In this document: in pieces, positions 30,669 through 64,000 of the stretch
Layout: each line of letters starts with the position of its first letter
Position numbering within the stretch: the first letter of the stretch is position 1
Assembly (NCBI GenBank): GCA_963754195.1
Contig: CAVWFD010000017.1
Span: 18,692-82,691 of the forward strand
Length of the DNA: 64,000 bases
Reading direction: 5' to 3'
From: an uncultured Chloroflexia bacterium
Lineage (GTDB): Bacteria; Chloroflexota; Dehalococcoidia; Dehalococcoidales; Fen-1064
Position numbers and translations under genes: made by a program
Notes under the pieces: generated by a model
The model's database searches: none
The model's input: the letters and a program-made list of their open reading frames with translations, nothing else
What the model was told of the DNA's origin: nothing

Positions 30669-30830
30669 CTATTTTGCATAGGAATAAGCTTATGATGAAA
30701 AAGGACAAAATGATCTAAAGCGATTTGGTGAAAAAGACCAGCCAGGCGGCTTGGTGCAAATCACCAAGCCGCCTTAAATTTGTCCGGCACATTAAAAATA
30801 AAATAGCGAGTTAGTATCAAGTCTGAAACA

Positions 30831-33797
<2,967 letters not shown>

Positions 33798-34035
33798 TGT
33801 TTCAGACTTGATATTAGCTTTTTATAACAGACTGACGCTGTATTGCTCAGTCTGTGTCATGACATGACCCGATTTTAGACTCTTTTTCTTTGATTTAAGA
33901 TTGAATTCATGCTACAATAATCATATAGAAATCCGGTGAGAAACCGGATTCCAAGAGACAGCCGGATAAGTATCTTGCAACAAAACGTAACCTGCTCTAT
34001 GATAGAGATGAGGCTGTCAGTAACAAGTGAATAGG

Positions 34036-34158
34036 CTTCCTGGTGGTTTGGGCGAAGTGGTACCACCCGTTCCCATCCCGAACACGGTAGTGAAACGCTT
34101 CAGCGCAGACGATACTGAGAGGACAACCTTTTGTGGAAAATATGCCATCGCCAGGAAG
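34036..34158 (+). rRNA. rrf: 5S ribosomal RNA
   Basis: CTTCCTGGTGG...CCCGTTCCCATCCCGAACACGG...GCCAGGAAG with complementary ends. Confidence 0.9.
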
Positions 34159-53758: not shown

Positions 53759-53957
53759 GCAAATTCACTTCATCCCTAAAACCAGTTTCGAAACAAAGTA
53801 ATATTACGTCAGTAATATTTATCCCTCAATAATGTTTTGTCATGGTTTTGGGAAAAGCCGGAAGTAGCGTCGTATTTTTCTGTAAATAAATCTATTTCGC
53901 AAGCATAGTTTATTATTTGCAAGTTAAATTGTTTTGTGTTAACATGGTAAAACAATA

Positions 53958-54148
53958 GAATATTGCAGGAGACTCAGAGTGCAAGCCCGGTGTAAATCCG
54001 GCGCAGTACCGCCTGCTGTAATCCCGGTTTATTCGGGAAAGCCAGAACGCTGAGTACACCAATTCCTCCGCGGGAAAGGAGGTGGGATACAAATCAAGCT
54101 GATCGTAAATCCCCCTCTATCGTATTTTGAGGGGGATTTTCTTTTTTA
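53958..54148 (+). promoter_or_regulatory. Cobalamin (B12) riboswitch with intrinsic terminator
   Basis: GCCCGGTGTAAATCCGGCGCAGTACCGCCTGCTGTAA core, an AGCCAGAAC B12-box-like element, and the terminator aatccccctc...gagggggatt plus a T-run at 54108-54148. Confidence 0.7.
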
Positions 54149-59602: not shown

Positions 59603-60292
59603 GTGGAAAAAGCTTTTATTTCCTGGAGCGGCGGCAAAGACTGCTGTATGGCGACCTATCAGGCCAAACAACAAGGCTTGGAAATAGCTTATCTCTTGAA
59701 TATGGTAACTCAGGATAAAAAGCGTTCCTGCAGCCATGGCATTGCAACACAATGGATTCGTAAGCAAGCGGAAGCGATAGGTATACCATTGCTTCAATTC
59801 CCCACCGCCGACGATAATTATCAGAGTATCTTTATAGATGCTTTACATAATCTGTTTAATCAGAACGTAAGCAAAGGAGTTTTCGGCGATATCGATTTTG
59901 AACCGCATCGGGAATGGATTGAAAAAGTTTGTGTGACGTCCGGAATTACCCCTATTTTACCGCTCTGGGGTCGGGATCAGACTAAAATTATGACGGATTT
60001 TATAGAGCTAAGATTCCAGGCTACAGTTATTGCCACCCGGGCCGACCTGCTGGGGGAAGAATGGTTGGGAAGGCGGGTAGACAAGGGATTTCTGAATAAT
60101 ATCGGAGAATTAGATAAAAGCATCACGCCTTGCGGTGAAGCCGGGGAATTTCATACTCGGGTGGTGGACGGCCCCATTTTCAAAAAACGTCTGGAAATTC
60201 GTGAAGCTACACCGGAGAAAAGAGGCGAACACTGGTTTTGGGATATAAAGCAAATCGAACTGGTAGAGAAGGGACATGGAGGTTCTGTTTGA
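59603..60292 (+). CDS. Dph6/MJ0570-like ATP pyrophosphatase (adenine-nucleotide alpha-hydrolase fold)
   Basis: AFISWSGGKDCCMA PP-loop (SGGKD) at the N-terminus and GEAGEFHT near the C-terminus. Confidence 0.7.
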   Translation: MEKAFISWSGGKDCCMATYQAKQQGLEIAYLLNMVTQDKKRSCSHGIATQWIRKQAEAIGIPLLQFPTADDNYQSIFIDALHNLFNQNVSKGVFGDIDFEPHREWIEKVCVTSGITPILPLWGRDQTKIMTDFIELRFQATVIATRADLLGEEWLGRRVDKGFLNNIGELDKSITPCGEAGEFHTRVVDGPIFKKRLEIREATPEKRGEHWFWDIKQIELVEKGHGGSV

Positions 60293-60861: not shown

Positions 60862-61422
60862 TTACAGTTCTGCGATTATCTCGTTTCTGCGGAAAGGACC
60901 GGGAATCCAGGGCGGATTATATTGCGCTAACTTAAAACCCGATTTGGCTTGTAAATTGTTTTTCATTAACCATGCTGCCAACTCCTGAGTTTTTCGCAAG
61001 GTTAATTTTTCGCTCATGTAACCGTAGAACTTCAACGCCACCGCTTTGTGCGGTTCGACTTTGTGAATCGATATCGCTTTGTTCAACGGTTCGGGTAAAC
61101 TTTCCAAATCGTATTTTGCCGGCATGGTAAAATAAACAAGGAACTTCTTACCTTCCCCGACTTTTACTGAGGTGACCGGCGCGGTCATTTCTATCTTTTT
61201 GCTCGTTACCGTTTGCTCTGTTACCGGCGCGGTCATTTTAATATAGGTTTTCGCCCGGTTATTCCCGAAAATATAGTCGGCCAGAATTCTAAATCCTTCA
61301 TTCAGAGCGCTCTTAAAGTCGGATTCGACTTCCACGGAAGCGTTTACATAAGCTTGATAACTCCTGACTTCAAATTTACCGTCTTTTTGTAAAACATCGT
61401 ATTTAGGAGTTTCAATAGGCAT
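60862..61422 (-). CDS. SOUL/HEBP-family haem-binding-like protein
   Basis: IETPKYDVLQKDGKFEVRSYQAY start and a duplicated MTAPVT segment, typical of SOUL proteins. Confidence 0.75.
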   Translation of the reverse strand: MPIETPKYDVLQKDGKFEVRSYQAYVNASVEVESDFKSALNEGFRILADYIFGNNRAKTYIKMTAPVTEQTVTSKKIEMTAPVTSVKVGEGKKFLVYFTMPAKYDLESLPEPLNKAISIHKVEPHKAVALKFYGYMSEKLTLRKTQELAAWLMKNNLQAKSGFKLAQYNPPWIPGPFRRNEIIAEL

Positions 61423-61503
61423 GCATTCACCTCCGTCTCGAAAAAGAATTCCAGACCATGCTCAAATGCCTAATCTTTGACGTTAATTGTCACGATACTG
61501 TTG

Positions 61504-62271
61504 TTATTTTAAAGTCAATACAGGGAAGAACACCTGCCAGGCAAGTAGCGCTTTCGCTGTTAGACTGAGGATGATGTAGACCTTCTCTCCGTACAGGTAG
61601 TCCCGCCAAGGGCCCACTTTCTTGTATTGCAATATCATATTGACCGCAAAGCAATTGAAGAAGACAAATAGCGAGACAATGATGCCGTAAACGAACCCGG
61701 GAGGCGATACTTTCACGCCCGGAGCGATGACGTAAATCATGATGGCAATCCACGGAATAATCCCCGCAAAGCTACCGAACCAGAACGGCAACCAGCCTGG
61801 TTTACCCGGTTTTTCGTACTTTTCCTGTAACACTCCGAAAAGTATCATACTGGCATTAGCACCAAAGATTGCCAGGAGGGCGGCGATATCGCTGATACCG
61901 GTGATTTGTGCTATTAAAACAATCATTATCGAAGAACTGAAGAAATACTCTATCCAGCGTCCGTAGTTGCGGTTTTGGAGAAGATTGCGTTTATACCAGG
62001 GGAAAATGGCCGGTGAGGCGATGACTAACAAAGAAACGGCCGAAATAGCAAGGAACGCAAACACACCCCAACCGGTGCGGATATTAAACAGGTGGTAAAG
62101 CAAAGGCGCAGTGCCGGGCGGACCTCCTAAAAACGTAGCATTTACCGGAAGGGAGAAACTATTGGTGAGTACCGCGATGAGGATTGCCTGGGCTGCCAGA
62201 ATTAACCCGACGACGATGTTCCATGTACGCAGTTGCCGAAGTTGCCGTTCTATAGATTGGTCATTGGCCAT
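61504..62271 (-). CDS. Heliorhodopsin
   Basis: Seven predicted TM helices, a long TM1-TM2 loop, RWIEYFFSSSIMIVLIAQ (Glu108 in TM3), FGANASMILFG, LPFWFG, PGFVYGII, and Lys240 in TM7 (LSLTAKALLAWQ). Matches the family as I recall it. Confidence 0.8.
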   Translation of the reverse strand: MANDQSIERQLRQLRTWNIVVGLILAAQAILIAVLTNSFSLPVNATFLGGPPGTAPLLYHLFNIRTGWGVFAFLAISAVSLLVIASPAIFPWYKRNLLQNRNYGRWIEYFFSSSIMIVLIAQITGISDIAALLAIFGANASMILFGVLQEKYEKPGKPGWLPFWFGSFAGIIPWIAIMIYVIAPGVKVSPPGFVYGIIVSLFVFFNCFAVNMILQYKKVGPWRDYLYGEKVYIILSLTAKALLAWQVFFPVLTLK

Positions 62272-62349
62272 ACTATGCCTCCTTGCCGTTCATTATAAGT
62301 AATTTTACCAATATACTAATTAGTTGAATTGTCCAAAGTCAAGGAGGAT

Positions 62350-62979
62350 TTACCTGGTGTAGCGGCCGCGATATTCCGGCGGTACAAGGTCGGCGATGTG
62401 CATCATGATTTCGCGGGTGTTACGGGCAGTTTCTTCTTTGCTGAATTTTTCGGGAGAAGAAGCGGAAAGTGTAAACGGCTGCCCGATATTGAGCGTAATT
62501 TTAGGTCGCTTTAAAAACCACCATTTACCTTTCAGCTGTGAAGTGCCGATGATACCTACCGGCACGATGGGGACGCCGCTCTTCATGGCCAATAACGCCG
62601 CCCCTGTGTAGGCTGGCCCGAGCTTACCGTCCTCAGTACGTTTACCCTCAGGGTAAATCATGAGTACTTGACCGCTGGCTAAAAGCTCTAATGCTGTCCT
62701 TCCGGCGCGGCGGTTGATCCTGCCTTTGATCACCGGAAAAGCGCCGAATTGTTCTGCCAACCAACCGATAATGCGCGGGTAAAACATCTCTTCTTTGGCC
62801 ATAAAGTAGACCTTACGTCCTAATCTCGCGCCGAGTATCGGCGAGTCCAGCAGGTTAACATGATTGGCTACGACAATGCAGGCGCTATGCTGCGGTAAAT
62901 TATTCTTACCTGTTACCTTGCAGCGTAATGTCAGTCCGGCAACGGTTGAAAAGCTGGTGCGTAAAATGTGATAGAACAT
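62350..62979 (-). CDS. plsC: 1-acyl-sn-glycerol-3-phosphate acyltransferase
   Basis: VANHVNLLDSP (HxxxxD) and IYPEGKRT motifs. Confidence 0.85.
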   Translation of the reverse strand: MFYHILRTSFSTVAGLTLRCKVTGKNNLPQHSACIVVANHVNLLDSPILGARLGRKVYFMAKEEMFYPRIIGWLAEQFGAFPVIKGRINRRAGRTALELLASGQVLMIYPEGKRTEDGKLGPAYTGAALLAMKSGVPIVPVGIIGTSQLKGKWWFLKRPKITLNIGQPFTLSASSPEKFSKEETARNTREIMMHIADLVPPEYRGRYTR

Positions 62980-63024: not shown

Positions 63025-63690
63025 TCATTTCGTAACCATAAAATGAACGATAACCAATGTGCCCCACTCATCCCCGCCGGTGATAGTATAAGTTCCGGGG
63101 TTAAAGTAGGTTAAATGTGAATGAGAGGAAAAGATATCATCAGGCCAATATCCATTTACAATGAGTTCAAAATTCACCTTTGTGATGTTATCATCTTGAA
63201 CGGGATTAGAGTCTTCGTGTACACTGGCGATGTCACTCGATGGTTGAAAAGAGAAGGAAGTGACGGGTACATTTGTCATGCATGATCGCTCGACATGCGG
63301 GTCATAAAGTGTGAGAGCCGTCGTTGTGGAAAAGTTAGAAGCATTGTAATCTCCATGGAAGACAGCTATTCCGAAAGGAGAGATGTAGTCACATGGACCT
63401 AAATGTAATTGATTATACGGCCAATTGTCAGACACGAGGACATTATTCTTGGTTGAAAGCGTATTTTTTTCATCAACAACAATCGAAACTTTCTGACCAC
63501 GCCGATAGGTTGTTTTGTCTGTTGAAAGTGACAGGTTCAGACCGTTTACAGATTGAAATGAGGCAGAGTTGATGCCTATAATGCCTGTAGTCGTGAGAGG
63601 CATAGTTTGATTATCAGCATTCCCACAGCCTGCTGATAATATACCGAAAAATAATACTACTGCCGTAATACTAATAATTCGATGTTTCAT
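63025..63690 (-). CDS. Lipoprotein of unknown function
   Basis: Signal MKHRIISITAVVLFFGILSAGC (lipobox). The C-terminal TYTITGGDEWGTLVIVHFMVTK is shared with the next ORF. Confidence 0.5.
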   Translation of the reverse strand: MKHRIISITAVVLFFGILSAGCGNADNQTMPLTTTGIIGINSASFQSVNGLNLSLSTDKTTYRRGQKVSIVVDEKNTLSTKNNVLVSDNWPYNQLHLGPCDYISPFGIAVFHGDYNASNFSTTTALTLYDPHVERSCMTNVPVTSFSFQPSSDIASVHEDSNPVQDDNITKVNFELIVNGYWPDDIFSSHSHLTYFNPGTYTITGGDEWGTLVIVHFMVTK

Positions 63691-63723: not shown

Positions 63724-64000
63724 CTATTTCGAAACCCTGAAATGAACCAATACTAAATTACCCCATTCATCCCCGGCAACCACGGTATAAGTAGCAGAGC
63801 CAAACGGGATTAATTGGGCACCCCAATCCTGATTTGGCCAATATCCCTGTAACGTAAGGTCGCGGCTTATCAGATTGTAATTGTTATTCAATTGGTAATC
63901 GCCGCCTTCAAGGTTGGCAGTATCGCTTGACGGGTGAAAAGAGTAAGATGTTGGCCCAATAACTTGGGTGCCTGCATACACGTCATTTGGGTTAAAAACT
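63724..64000 (-). CDS. Paralogue of the 63025-63690 lipoprotein (partial; 5' end beyond the window)
   Basis: The frame stays open to the window edge. SYSFHPSSD...GYWPN...TYTVVAGDEWGNLVLVHFRVSK aligns with the neighbour. Confidence 0.45.
   Translation of the reverse strand, partial: VFNPNDVYAGTQVIGPTSYSFHPSSDTANLEGGDYQLNNNYNLISRDLTLQGYWPNQDWGAQLIPFGSATYTVVAGDEWGNLVLVHFRVSK

What the first reader, a model, noticed from the sequence alone, without database searches (positions are those of the whole stretch)
61504..62271. Heliorhodopsin in a plsC - heliorhodopsin - SOUL haem-binding gene string, next to the cobalamin operon
Seen: the 255-aa protein has seven TM helices, Glu108 in RWIEYFFSSS (TM3), Lys240 in LSLTAKALLAWQ (TM7), a long TM1-TM2 loop, and several blocks I recognise as heliorhodopsin-typical (FGANASMILFG, LPFWFG, PGFVYGII). 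It is co-directional with plsC (upstream) and a SOUL/HEBP protein (81 nt downstream). The string converges on cobU. No carotenoid or retinal biosynthesis gene (crt, blh) is in the window.

Established: heliorhodopsins are non-pumping, inverted-topology retinal proteins with unresolved physiological roles.

Inference: a photoreceptor in a presumably anaerobic, corrinoid-salvaging organism, next to a tetrapyrrole-binding protein, hints at light-linked control of tetrapyrrole or lipid metabolism. The retinal source is unclear.
Basis: partly seen in the sequence, partly recalled or inferred. Interest (0 to 1): 0.6.

Follow-up and report, generated by a model that had tools for sequence, protein, structure and literature searches.

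The report
Heliorhodopsin paired with SOUL-family protein
This is a genuine heliorhodopsin (a light-sensing retinal membrane protein) of a subtype others have already measured, in an uncultured Dehalococcoidales bacterium. Its pairing with a small SOUL "haem-binding" protein is real and conserved in a few lineages but was already noted in print, and the plsC and cobalamin neighbours are local accidents.

Summary
ORF 61504-62271 (-) is a full-length heliorhodopsin (Pfam 320 bits, NCBIfam equivalog 314 bits). It has seven TM helices and an N-in charge bias. Glu108 and Lys240 align to the counterion and Schiff-base lysine of HeR-48C12.

It belongs to the histidine-less (Leu25/Leu81) Dehalococcoidia subtype already expressed and measured as HeR HULAa30F3 (562 nm, low M).

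The genome lacks crtB, RPE65-type cleavage enzymes, HemB and ferrochelatase, so retinal and any tetrapyrrole must be imported.

Seen from HeR, SOUL is a minority neighbour: 4 of 80 close loci, against 23 of 76 for DegV. Seen from SOUL, the link is tight. SOUL occurs in only 3 of 401 genomes of the class, yet 8 of 9 informative relatives at 63% identity or more sit within one gene of a HeR, while everything else around them is reshuffled.

The plsC adjacency is unique to this genome, though PlsY and DegV recur in sister loci. The cob adjacency is not conserved.

The SOUL-HeR association was published as a neighbourhood motif by Chazan et al. (2021/22) and remains untested.

Verdict: new member of a known kind, with modest interest.

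The parts
61504..62271 (-). Heliorhodopsin gene, 255 aa, Leu25/Leu81 (histidine-less) subtype. Counterion Glu108, Schiff-base Lys240.
   Evidence: PF18761 319.7 bits. NF038020 314 bits. 53.8% identical to 48C12 with key residues aligned. N-in charge bias 14:3. dN/dS 0.02-0.05 against orthologues.
60862..61422 (-). SOUL/HEBP-family protein, 186 aa, with no signal peptide or TM segment, so predicted cytoplasmic. Conserved partner of this HeR clade.
   Evidence: PF04832 163.9 bits over 1-171 of 173 positions. Closest solved structures are HEBP2 and HEBP1. 8 of 9 informative relatives at >=63% identity lie within one gene of a HeR. dN/dS 0.07-0.11.
61423..61503 (-). 81-nt HeR-SOUL spacer with a Shine-Dalgarno GGAGGTG before the SOUL ATG and no convincing terminator. 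Probably co-transcribed.
   Evidence: Sequence read. The terminator scan found only a weak 5-bp stem inside the HeR 3' end, no more than the shuffles give.
62272..62349 (-). 78-nt plsC-HeR spacer with a perfect TATAAT (62297..62292), a TTGACT/TAGTAT promoter-like site and a strong SD AAGGAGG. HeR may have its own promoter.
   Evidence: These are consensus matches only, and no expression data were available.
62350..62979 (-). PlsC-like 1-acylglycerol-3-phosphate acyltransferase, 209 aa, with the NHx4D motif (NHVNLLD) and PEGKRT. It is the only detectable copy in the genome. The adjacency is unique to this genome, and its membership of the unit is doubtful.
   Evidence: PF01553 99 bits; TIGR00530 89 bits, below its cut-off of 103. 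The orthologues in G001 and G006 (69% identical) are on other contigs and 0 of 80 HeR loci carry it.

Best explanation
SHOWN:
- The ORF is an intact heliorhodopsin under strong purifying selection, with N-in/C-out topology. It belongs to the Leu25/Leu81 Dehalococcoidia subtype whose type member, HeR HULAa30F3, binds all-trans retinal, absorbs at 562 nm, accumulates little M and has a long-lived O state. That is a slow-cycling sensor, not a pump.
- The host is an uncultured Dehalococcoidales bacterium of 2.57 Mb. It has no phytoene synthase, no carotenoid-cleavage oxygenase, no HemB and no ferrochelatase. Retinal, and any tetrapyrrole, must therefore be scavenged.
- HeR and the downstream 186-aa cytoplasmic SOUL-family gene form a conserved two-gene unit. 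In some relatives a 177-aa five-helix membrane protein lies between them. The unit has stayed together through saturated synonymous divergence and complete reshuffling of the flanks.
- plsC upstream and the convergent cobalamin-salvage operon are local juxtapositions.

INFERRED (my odds about 0.35): three HeRs have been shown to bind and light-modulate the product of an adjacent gene (glutamine synthetase, photolyase, an ABC transporter). By analogy, light-activated HeR contacts the SOUL protein through its basic cytoplasmic loops and changes how SOUL holds or releases a hydrophobic planar ligand.

The most likely ligand is an imported, photosensitising tetrapyrrole: haem, a porphyrin or a chlorophyll catabolite. 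The effect would be protection of a light-sensitive monoderm anaerobe when it is exposed at a peat or sediment surface.
For: Identity.

Subtype: Chazan et al. describe the Dehalococcoidia HeR HULAa30F3 with 'H25 and H81 replaced by leucine', 562 nm and low M. This protein has L25 and L81, as do 85 of 95 HeRs of the order, including all 10 SOUL-linked ones.

Scavenging: crtB 0 of 8 in the genus and RPE65 absent. HemB is absent in G000, G001, G005 and G006, with controls ringing in 11 of 14. Ferrochelatase is absent in 0 of 13, with controls ringing in 8 of 14. A btuFCD-cobTSCU salvage string is present.

Pairing:
- SOUL occurs in 4 of 41 relatives, all in one genus, and in 3 of 401 class genomes.
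- It is adjacent to HeR in G000, G005 and G006. It sits inside the DegV/m178/HeR cluster in G188 and beside DegV/m178 in G001.
- Metagenomic relatives at 63-73% identity: 8 of 9 informative loci have a HeR within one gene.
- The flanking genes differ in every lineage, and there is no synteny between sister species except HeR-SOUL.
- The SOUL label is clustered on the HeR tree: 5 changes against 9.6 when shuffled, 0 of 500 shuffles as low.
- dN/dS is 0.02-0.11 with dS at or above 1.8.

Precedents for HeR regulating an operon neighbour: PMC9529153, PMC9769723 and PMC11109279.

Tetrapyrrole theme: Staygreen (Mg-dechelatase family) and PNPOx-like genes occupy the same downstream slot in other loci. 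A bacterial Staygreen homologue is an active dechelatase (PMC8531759).
Against:
- From the HeR side SOUL is rare (4 of 80), so it cannot be the general HeR effector.
- One SOUL locus (G304) and the second SOUL paralogues have no HeR-module genes nearby.
- At about 60% identity, SOUL instead heads a SOUL-267aa-PNPOx-Rieske cassette that can lack a HeR.
- The proposed axial haem ligand of human SOUL aligns to Ser21 here, so the ligand is unknown.
- The SOUL-linked HeRs may descend from one ancestral arrangement, so the number of independent events is small.
Confidence: 0.65

Rival explanations
1. Lipid-remodelling module. HeR is the light input to a set of enzymes that incorporate exogenous fatty acids into phospholipids: DegV/FakB, then PlsY, then PlsC. 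On this reading plsC is a genuine part of the unit here, and SOUL is an accessory lipid or hydrophobic-ligand carrier.
For: DegV is the commonest neighbour of this HeR clade, in 23 of 76 loci and immediately downstream and co-directional in 15. A PlsY paralogue lies directly beside SOUL in three other species of the same genus: L110/111, G006 and G001. PlsC lies 78 nt upstream here. Chazan et al. proposed membrane-lipid remodelling from the DegV/DUF2177 association. The genome carries 5 DegV and 7 PlsY-like paralogues.
Against: PlsC is next to HeR only in this genome, in 0 of 80 loci, and the orthologues in sister species are elsewhere. It is the only detectable PlsC and is therefore probably housekeeping. 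The spacer carries a promoter-like -10 site, so HeR need not be co-transcribed with it. This genome has no DegV or m178 near HeR.
Confidence: 0.15
2. Chromophore-supply reading. The SOUL-fold protein is a cytoplasmic carrier for scavenged retinal, or for a carotenoid antenna. It loads or stabilises the HeR chromophore in an organism that cannot make retinal, and does not handle tetrapyrroles.
For: There is no retinal or carotenoid pathway in the genome. SOUL lacks the axial His expected for haem ligation. Carotenoid-glycoside-ester-type genes (CrtO PF18927, GT2, amino oxidase) lie beside HeR-SOUL in three related loci. A 2025 preprint argues that HeRs recruit exogenous xanthophylls.
Against: HeRs reconstitute with free retinal in E. 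coli without helpers. Most HeR-bearing Dehalococcoidales lack SOUL. HeR's retinal fenestration faces the membrane, not the cytoplasm (my recollection of the literature). No SOUL-family member is known to bind retinoids.
Confidence: 0.1
3. Shared regulon only. HeR and SOUL are co-located because both belong to a light or oxidative-stress response set that also includes photolyase, Msr, PNPOx-like proteins and Fur. There is no physical interaction, and HeR signals through something else.
For: The slot downstream of HeR is variably filled by SOUL, Staygreen, PNPOx-like, isochorismatase or lipoprotein genes. SOUL also occurs next to MsrA/MsrB without a HeR. Photolyase and PNPOx lie beside one HeR/SOUL pair. 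Bulzu et al. and Chazan et al. both propose an oxidative-stress theme.
Against: The pair is tight and co-directional, with gaps of 45-157 nt, and it has been retained through complete reshuffling of the flanks. That is stronger linkage than loose regulon membership would usually produce.
Confidence: 0.2

Closest known systems
HeR HULAa30F3 (Dehalococcoidia fosmid, Lake Ha'Hula peat lake; Chazan et al., bioRxiv 10.1101/2021.02.16.431466, published Environ Microbiol 2022)
   Same: Same class of organism and a similar peat or freshwater habitat. It has the same replacement of both conserved histidines by leucine at the same numbering (25 and 81), and it belongs to branch-A HeRs. Its measured properties (562 nm, low M, long-lived O) are therefore the best prediction for this protein.
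   Different: Its neighbour is DegV, whereas here the neighbour is SOUL and no DegV or m178 lies nearby. I could not obtain the HULAa30F3 sequence, so identity to it was not computed.
HeR-48C12 (PDB 6su3/6uh3) and TaHeR (6is6)
   Same: Same fold and family. It is 53.8% identical to 48C12. The conserved residues are E108, K240, S236, N102, W106, Y109, S113, N139, M142, W174 and E229.
   Different: H23 becomes L25, H80 becomes L81 and Q213 becomes M212. The histidine pair implicated in proton acceptance is therefore missing.
Published SOUL-HeR neighbourhood motif (Chazan et al.; example next to the archaeal HeR HULAa36F11)
   Same: The SOUL haem-binding domain is listed there among recurrent HeR neighbours and interpreted as linked to oxidative stress.
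   Different: Here the view is from the SOUL side, within the Dehalococcoidales. A rare SOUL clade is almost always HeR-linked, in genomes that can make neither retinal nor tetrapyrroles. No experiment exists for this pair, and it is not among the ten neighbour groups of PMC11109279.
HeR-partner regulation: AbHeR-glutamine synthetase (PMC9529153), TfHeR-photolyase (PMC9769723), OcHeR-OmrDE ABC transporter (PMC11109279)
   Same: A HeR encoded in the same operon as a protein that it binds and modulates in light. This is the working model adopted here.
   Different: The partner would be a small ligand-binding protein rather than an enzyme or transporter, and no interaction data exist.
Human HEBP2 (SOUL, 3r8j/4ayz) and HEBP1 (p22HBP, 2gov)
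   Same: Same Pfam family, with a full-length match.
   Different: Only distant similarity (E 1e-6 and 5e-3). The His of 'EIRHY' is Ser21 here. The protein is bacterial, cytoplasmic and 186 aa long.

Membership tests
Heliorhodopsin (Pfam PF18761 / NCBIfam NF038020) | Full-length HMM match above the curated cut-off | tested here: met
   319.7 bits against 26.7, and 314.2 bits against 100.
Heliorhodopsin (Pfam PF18761 / NCBIfam NF038020) | Schiff-base lysine in TM7 and Glu counterion in TM3, aligned to K241 and E107 of 48C12 | tested here: met
   K240 and E108. Both are invariant in 94-95 of 95 relatives.
Heliorhodopsin (Pfam PF18761 / NCBIfam NF038020) | Seven TM helices with inverted (N-terminus cytoplasmic) topology | tested here: met
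   Seven hydrophobic segments. K+R counts are 14 inside and 3 outside for N-in. This is a prediction only.
Heliorhodopsin (Pfam PF18761 / NCBIfam NF038020) | Binds all-trans retinal, absorbs visible light, and has a slow photocycle without net ion transport | not testable with these tools
   Inferred from the measured subtype member HULAa30F3.
Histidine-less (Leu/Leu) Dehalococcoidia HeR subtype (HULAa30F3-like) | Leu at the positions of 48C12 H23 and H80 | tested here: met
   L25 and L81. The numbering is the same as in Chazan et al..
Histidine-less (Leu/Leu) Dehalococcoidia HeR subtype (HULAa30F3-like) | Direct sequence identity to HULAa30F3 | not tested
SOUL/HEBP (Pfam PF04832) | Full-length HMM match above the cut-off | tested here: met
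   163.9 bits against 27, covering 1-171 of 173 positions.
SOUL/HEBP (Pfam PF04832) | Haem or tetrapyrrole binding (axial His as proposed for human SOUL) | tested here: not met
   The His of 'EIRHY' aligns to Ser21 in 'EVRSY'. The only His residues are at 120 and 125. HEBP1-type binding needs no axial ligand, so tetrapyrrole binding is neither shown nor excluded.
PlsC / LPAAT (PF01553, TIGR00530) | Acyltransferase domain with the HX4D and EGTR-like motifs | tested here: met
   PF01553 99 bits. NHVNLLD and PEGKRT are visible in the translation.
PlsC / LPAAT (PF01553, TIGR00530) | Score above the TIGR00530 subfamily cut-off | tested here: not met
   89.3 bits against 102.95. It is an LPAAT-like protein of the family, but the exact substrate is not established.
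HeR-DegV-DUF2177 module (Chazan et al.) | DegV and/or DUF2177 next to HeR | tested here: not met
   None of the five DegV paralogues is near HeR, and there is no m178 homologue in G000. The m178 family is not DUF2177 by Pfam.

The most novel reading that the evidence does not exclude
A rare clade of the SOUL family (186-188 aa, cytoplasmic, without an axial His) is a dedicated soluble partner of Leu/Leu heliorhodopsins. Light-activated HeR would gate the binding or release of a scavenged pigment by SOUL, either a tetrapyrrole or possibly retinal or a carotenoid. The hosts can make neither retinal nor tetrapyrroles. This would be the first ligand-carrier effector for a heliorhodopsin. It would also offer a simple in-vitro route to HeR function in Chloroflexota.
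Probability: 0.25. Interest if true: 0.6.

Novelty: new member of a known kind. Interest (0 to 1): 0.33.

Why it matters
The physiological role of heliorhodopsins is still largely open, and only three partner proteins have been shown experimentally. This locus adds no new kind of protein. It does sharpen a published hint: a small soluble SOUL protein stays glued to this HeR subtype while everything around it is reshuffled, in bacteria that must import both retinal and tetrapyrroles. That makes HeR plus SOUL a cheap two-protein system to test by co-expression, dark/light binding and ligand screening. It also shows that the plsC and cobalamin neighbours should not be over-interpreted.

Tried and rejected
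1. A conserved plsC-HeR-SOUL string. Rejected: PlsC is adjacent only in this genome.
2. A link to the cobalamin operon. Rejected: CobU lies within 6 kb of HeR in only 2 of 80 loci, and neither of those is adjacent.
3. An earlier scan note called the 177-aa five-helix partner 'TSPO-like', which would have supported a tetrapyrrole theme. Rejected here. There is no Pfam hit at E<=10, including TspO and DUF2177, and no PDB sequence hit. The AF2 model is confident (pLDDT 90), yet Foldseek against the PDB gives no match at E<=0.001 and no TSPO among the top hits.
5. blh (PF15461) and type-1 rhodopsin (PF01036) searches returned nothing, but their controls were silent. These absences are weak. The absence of retinal synthesis rests on crtB and RPE65, whose controls worked.
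6. Synteny comparison with the sister genomes to reconstruct how plsC came to lie beside HeR. No shared flanks were found, so the history cannot be resolved.
7. Terminator and promoter scans. Counts were no higher than in shuffles for terminators, so operon structure remains inferred from spacing and SD sites.

Full report
**1. Observation**

- It matches Pfam Heliorhodopsin end to end: 319.7 bits, E 1.4e-95, 1-242 of 242 positions.
- It matches the NCBIfam HeR equivalog at 314 bits against a cut-off of 100.
- Against solved structures the best hits are HeR-48C12 entries (E about 5e-75), then TaHeR.
- A pairwise alignment gives 53.8% identity to 48C12. E108 aligns to E107 (the counterion) and K240 to K241 (the Schiff base). 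S77, N102, R105, W106, Y109, S113, N139, M142, E150, W174, F205, Y225, E229 and S236 are also conserved.
- Hydropathy gives seven segments. With the N-terminus inside, the loops carry 14 K+R inside against 3 outside, which is the inverted topology expected of a heliorhodopsin.
- The gene has a strong Shine-Dalgarno (AAGGAGG) and a perfect TATAAT in the 78-nt spacer after plsC.
- dN/dS against orthologues is 0.02-0.05.

**2. Which heliorhodopsin**

Three positions differ from 48C12: H23 becomes L25, H80 becomes L81 and Q213 becomes M212.

Chazan et al. (bioRxiv 10.1101/2021.02.16.431466) expressed a HeR from a Dehalococcoidia fosmid of a peat lake, HULAa30F3. Its features:
- an absorption maximum at 562 nm, the most red-shifted HeR then known;
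- little M and a long-lived O state.

The numbering is identical to this protein. Among 95 HeRs I collected from this order, 85 are Leu/Leu and 10 are His/His, the latter forming a second, roughly 45-52% identical type. The protein is therefore a member of a subtype that has already been characterised. I could not obtain the HULAa30F3 sequence for a direct identity figure.

**3. Organism and pigments**

The window is C17:18692-82691 of a 2.57-Mb, 21-contig MAG. The closest HeR loci are all titled Dehalococcoidales or Dehalococcoidia MAGs from fens, peat, groundwater and sediments. HeR is common there: 23 of 41 relatives, and more than 560 loci in the genome collection.

What the genome lacks:
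- phytoene/squalene synthase, absent in 0 of 8 genomes of the genus (controls ring in 8 of 14);
- RPE65-type carotenoid oxygenase;
- blh gave no hit, but its control was silent;
- HemB, absent in G000, G001, G005 and G006 (controls ring in 11 of 14);
- ferrochelatase, absent in 0 of 13 genomes (controls ring in 8 of 14).

The window carries btuFCD-like transport genes plus cobT, cobS, a cobC-like phosphatase and cobU, behind a sub-threshold AdoCbl riboswitch. The organism therefore scavenges corrinoids and can make neither retinal nor any tetrapyrrole. This agrees with the published observation that HeR genomes rarely carry blh.

**4. Is the neighbourhood conserved? The view from HeR**

In the 80 closest HeR loci (69-88% identity, plus or minus 6 kb):
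- SOUL is present in 4;
- PlsC is present in none;
- CobU is present in 2, each about 3.6 kb away.

De novo clustering of neighbouring ORFs gave the following:
- DegV in 23 of 76 loci, 15 of them immediately downstream and co-directional;
- an unannotated 177-178-aa membrane protein ('m178') in 21 loci;
- ABC transporter parts, two-component genes, Fur, a PNPOx-like protein, Staygreen and an isochorismatase at lower frequency.

This reproduces the published DegV pattern. In this genome none of the five DegV paralogues is near HeR, and m178 and Staygreen are absent.

**5. The view from SOUL**

SOUL is very rare in this lineage: 4 of 41 relatives, all in one genus, and 3 of 401 genomes sampled across the class. 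Where it occurs, it is almost always in HeR company.

In genomes:
- G000: HeR-SOUL.
- G005: HeR-m178-SOUL, with 51-nt and 14-nt gaps.
- G006: HeR-SOUL-PlsY.
- G188: DegV-SOUL...m178-HeR.
- G001: m178, DegV and SOUL together, with HeR on another contig.
- Only G304 and the second, 47%-identical paralogues stand alone.

Of 807 metagenomic relatives I examined twelve on longer contigs. Ten of these are at or above 63% identity, and nine of the ten are informative. A HeR lies within one gene in eight of those nine:
- P0016 and P0024: HeR then SOUL.
- P0036: HeR, a 36-aa ORF, SOUL, then PlsY.
- P0058: divergent HeR/SOUL, with photolyase and a second HeR nearby.
- P0048, P0056, P0057 and P0031: HeR, m178, then SOUL.
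- P0055, the exception, sits beside DegV and DUF2177 at a contig start.
- P0053 is cut 370 nt upstream and is uninformative.

At about 60% identity SOUL heads a SOUL-267aa-PNPOx-Rieske cassette. One such cassette is followed by a HeR, and others lie next to MsrA/MsrB with no HeR in view.

Further points on the pairing:
- The genes flanking the pair differ in every lineage.
- Sister species of this genus share no synteny here except HeR-SOUL.
- Synonymous sites are saturated while dN/dS stays at 0.07-0.11 for SOUL.
- On a HeR tree the SOUL-linked members are clustered: 5 changes against 9.6 under shuffling, with 0 of 500 shuffles as low. One origin is not excluded.

The pair is therefore a retained, lineage-limited unit. 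It is not a universal HeR feature.

**6. plsC and the lipid thread**

The upstream gene is an LPAAT-like acyltransferase.
- PF01553 scores 99 bits, and the NHVNLLD and PEGKRT motifs are present.
- It scores below the TIGR00530 cut-off.
- It is the only detectable copy in the genome.
- Its 69%-identical orthologues in G001 and G006 are on other contigs, in unrelated contexts.

The adjacency is therefore unique to this genome. However, a PlsY paralogue lies directly beside SOUL in three other species of the genus, and DegV/FakB is the main neighbour of this HeR clade. All three belong to the route that puts exogenous fatty acids into phosphatidic acid. This keeps the lipid-remodelling hypothesis of Chazan et al. 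alive as a rival. My odds that plsC itself is functionally coupled are about 0.25.

**7. What SOUL might do**

The protein has no signal peptide or TM segment, so it should meet HeR's basic cytoplasmic loops.
- It is a full-length PF04832 member.
- It is only distantly related to human HEBP2 and HEBP1 (E 1e-6 and 5e-3).
- The His of human SOUL's 'EIRHY' aligns to Ser21 here.

Haem ligation therefore cannot be assumed. HEBP1-type, ligand-free tetrapyrrole binding remains possible (this point is from my own knowledge).

Three experimental precedents show HeRs binding and light-modulating the product of an adjacent gene: glutamine synthetase (PMC9529153), photolyase (PMC9769723) and an ABC transporter (PMC11109279). 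SOUL is not among the ten neighbour groups of the last paper.

My best mechanistic guess, at about 0.35, is light-dependent HeR-SOUL contact that alters the sequestration of an imported photosensitising tetrapyrrole. Supporting context:
- The photo-oxidative-stress framework of Bulzu et al..
- Staygreen and PNPOx-like genes in the same slot in other loci.
- The proven Mg-dechelatase activity of a Chloroflexi Staygreen homologue.

An earlier scan note suggested that m178 is TSPO-like, which would have strengthened this reading. I tested it and found no support: no Pfam or PDB sequence hit, and no Foldseek match for a pLDDT-90 model.

**8. Comparison, novelty and verdict**

- The HeR is a new member of a measured subtype.
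- The SOUL association was listed by Chazan et al. as a recurrent motif, with an archaeal example.
- The absence of retinal genes is a known property of HeR genomes.
- The increment here has two parts. First, the linkage is asymmetric: a rare SOUL clade is almost always HeR-linked. Second, these hosts can make neither retinal nor tetrapyrroles.

That is useful for designing an experiment but is not a new kind of system. Interest is about 0.33.

Noticed in passing
L021:6817-7350; L112:4453-4986; L115:3157-3690; L122:3404-3937; L123:3449-3982; 21 of 76 HeR loci: An unannotated 177-178-aa five-helix membrane protein family ('m178') follows HeR or DegV and often sits between HeR and SOUL. It has no Pfam hit (it is not DUF2177 or TspO). 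The AF2 model has pLDDT 90. Foldseek finds no PDB match at E<=0.001. It is absent from the window's own genome.
   Followed up: partly
L032, L035, L036, L045, L091 (downstream of HeR): Staygreen (PF12638, chlorophyll Mg-dechelatase family, 172 bits) genes lie 2-7 genes downstream of HeR in 5 of 76 Dehalococcoidales loci, often after DegV-m178 and next to a PNPOx-like gene. I found no mention of a HeR-Staygreen link in the papers I read.
   Followed up: partly
L108:2171-3964; L117:2438-4062; contig of P0053: CrtO-like acyltransferase (PF18927) plus GT2 glycosyltransferase genes lie beside HeR/SOUL in three related loci, once with an amino-oxidase (CrtN/CrtI-like) gene as well. These are carotenoid-glycoside-ester-type genes, in a lineage whose sampled genomes lack phytoene synthase.
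   Followed up: no
L117:5001-7322; L118:2747-5053; L119; L120: At about 60% identity, SOUL heads a conserved cassette of SOUL, a 267-aa protein with no Pfam hit, a PNPOx-like protein and a 116-aa Rieske protein. The cassette occurs once upstream of a HeR and otherwise after MsrB-MsrA.
   Followed up: no
L002-L014 versus L012-L100: Two heliorhodopsin types coexist in the order. One is the Leu/Leu type (85 sequences). The other is a His/His type (10 sequences, 42-52% identical to the window's HeR) that forms a separate, well-supported clade.
   Followed up: partly
L084, L087, L089, L097, L100: Leu/Leu HeRs that are 69-76% identical to this one occur on long contigs of MAGs labelled Actinomycetes, Actinomycetota or 'delta proteobacterium'. 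This reflects either mislabelled bins or horizontal transfer. A diderm host would contradict the rule that HeRs occur only in monoderms.
   Followed up: no
window 30830-34156 (+): 23S rRNA (30830-33800) and 5S rRNA (34039-34156) are present, with no 16S gene in the window.
   Followed up: no
window 53954-54091 (+): A full-length but sub-threshold AdoCbl riboswitch match (34.3 bits against a gathering score of 50, E 1.2e-4) lies just upstream of the btuF-like gene. Nothing reached the gathering threshold here.
   Followed up: partly
window 59603-60292 (+): A Dph6/PP-loop ATP pyrophosphatase (PF01902, 189 bits) is embedded between the cobC-like gene and cobU in the salvage operon. The real cobU start is probably ATG 60301, because the Pfam match begins at residue 22 of the TTG-started ORF.
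   Followed up: no
genome C11:258471-259972; C9:13875-15180; C18:254762-256436: This 2.57-Mb genome has 5 DegV and 7 PlsY-like paralogues, including adjacent DegV-PlsY pairs and a DegV tandem. This suggests heavy reliance on exogenous fatty acids.
   Followed up: no
window 63025-63690 (-) and 63724-64000 (-): Tandem paralogous lipoprotein-like genes (44% identical, with a third copy on C15) have no Pfam or NCBIfam match. They lie immediately upstream of plsC.
   Followed up: no
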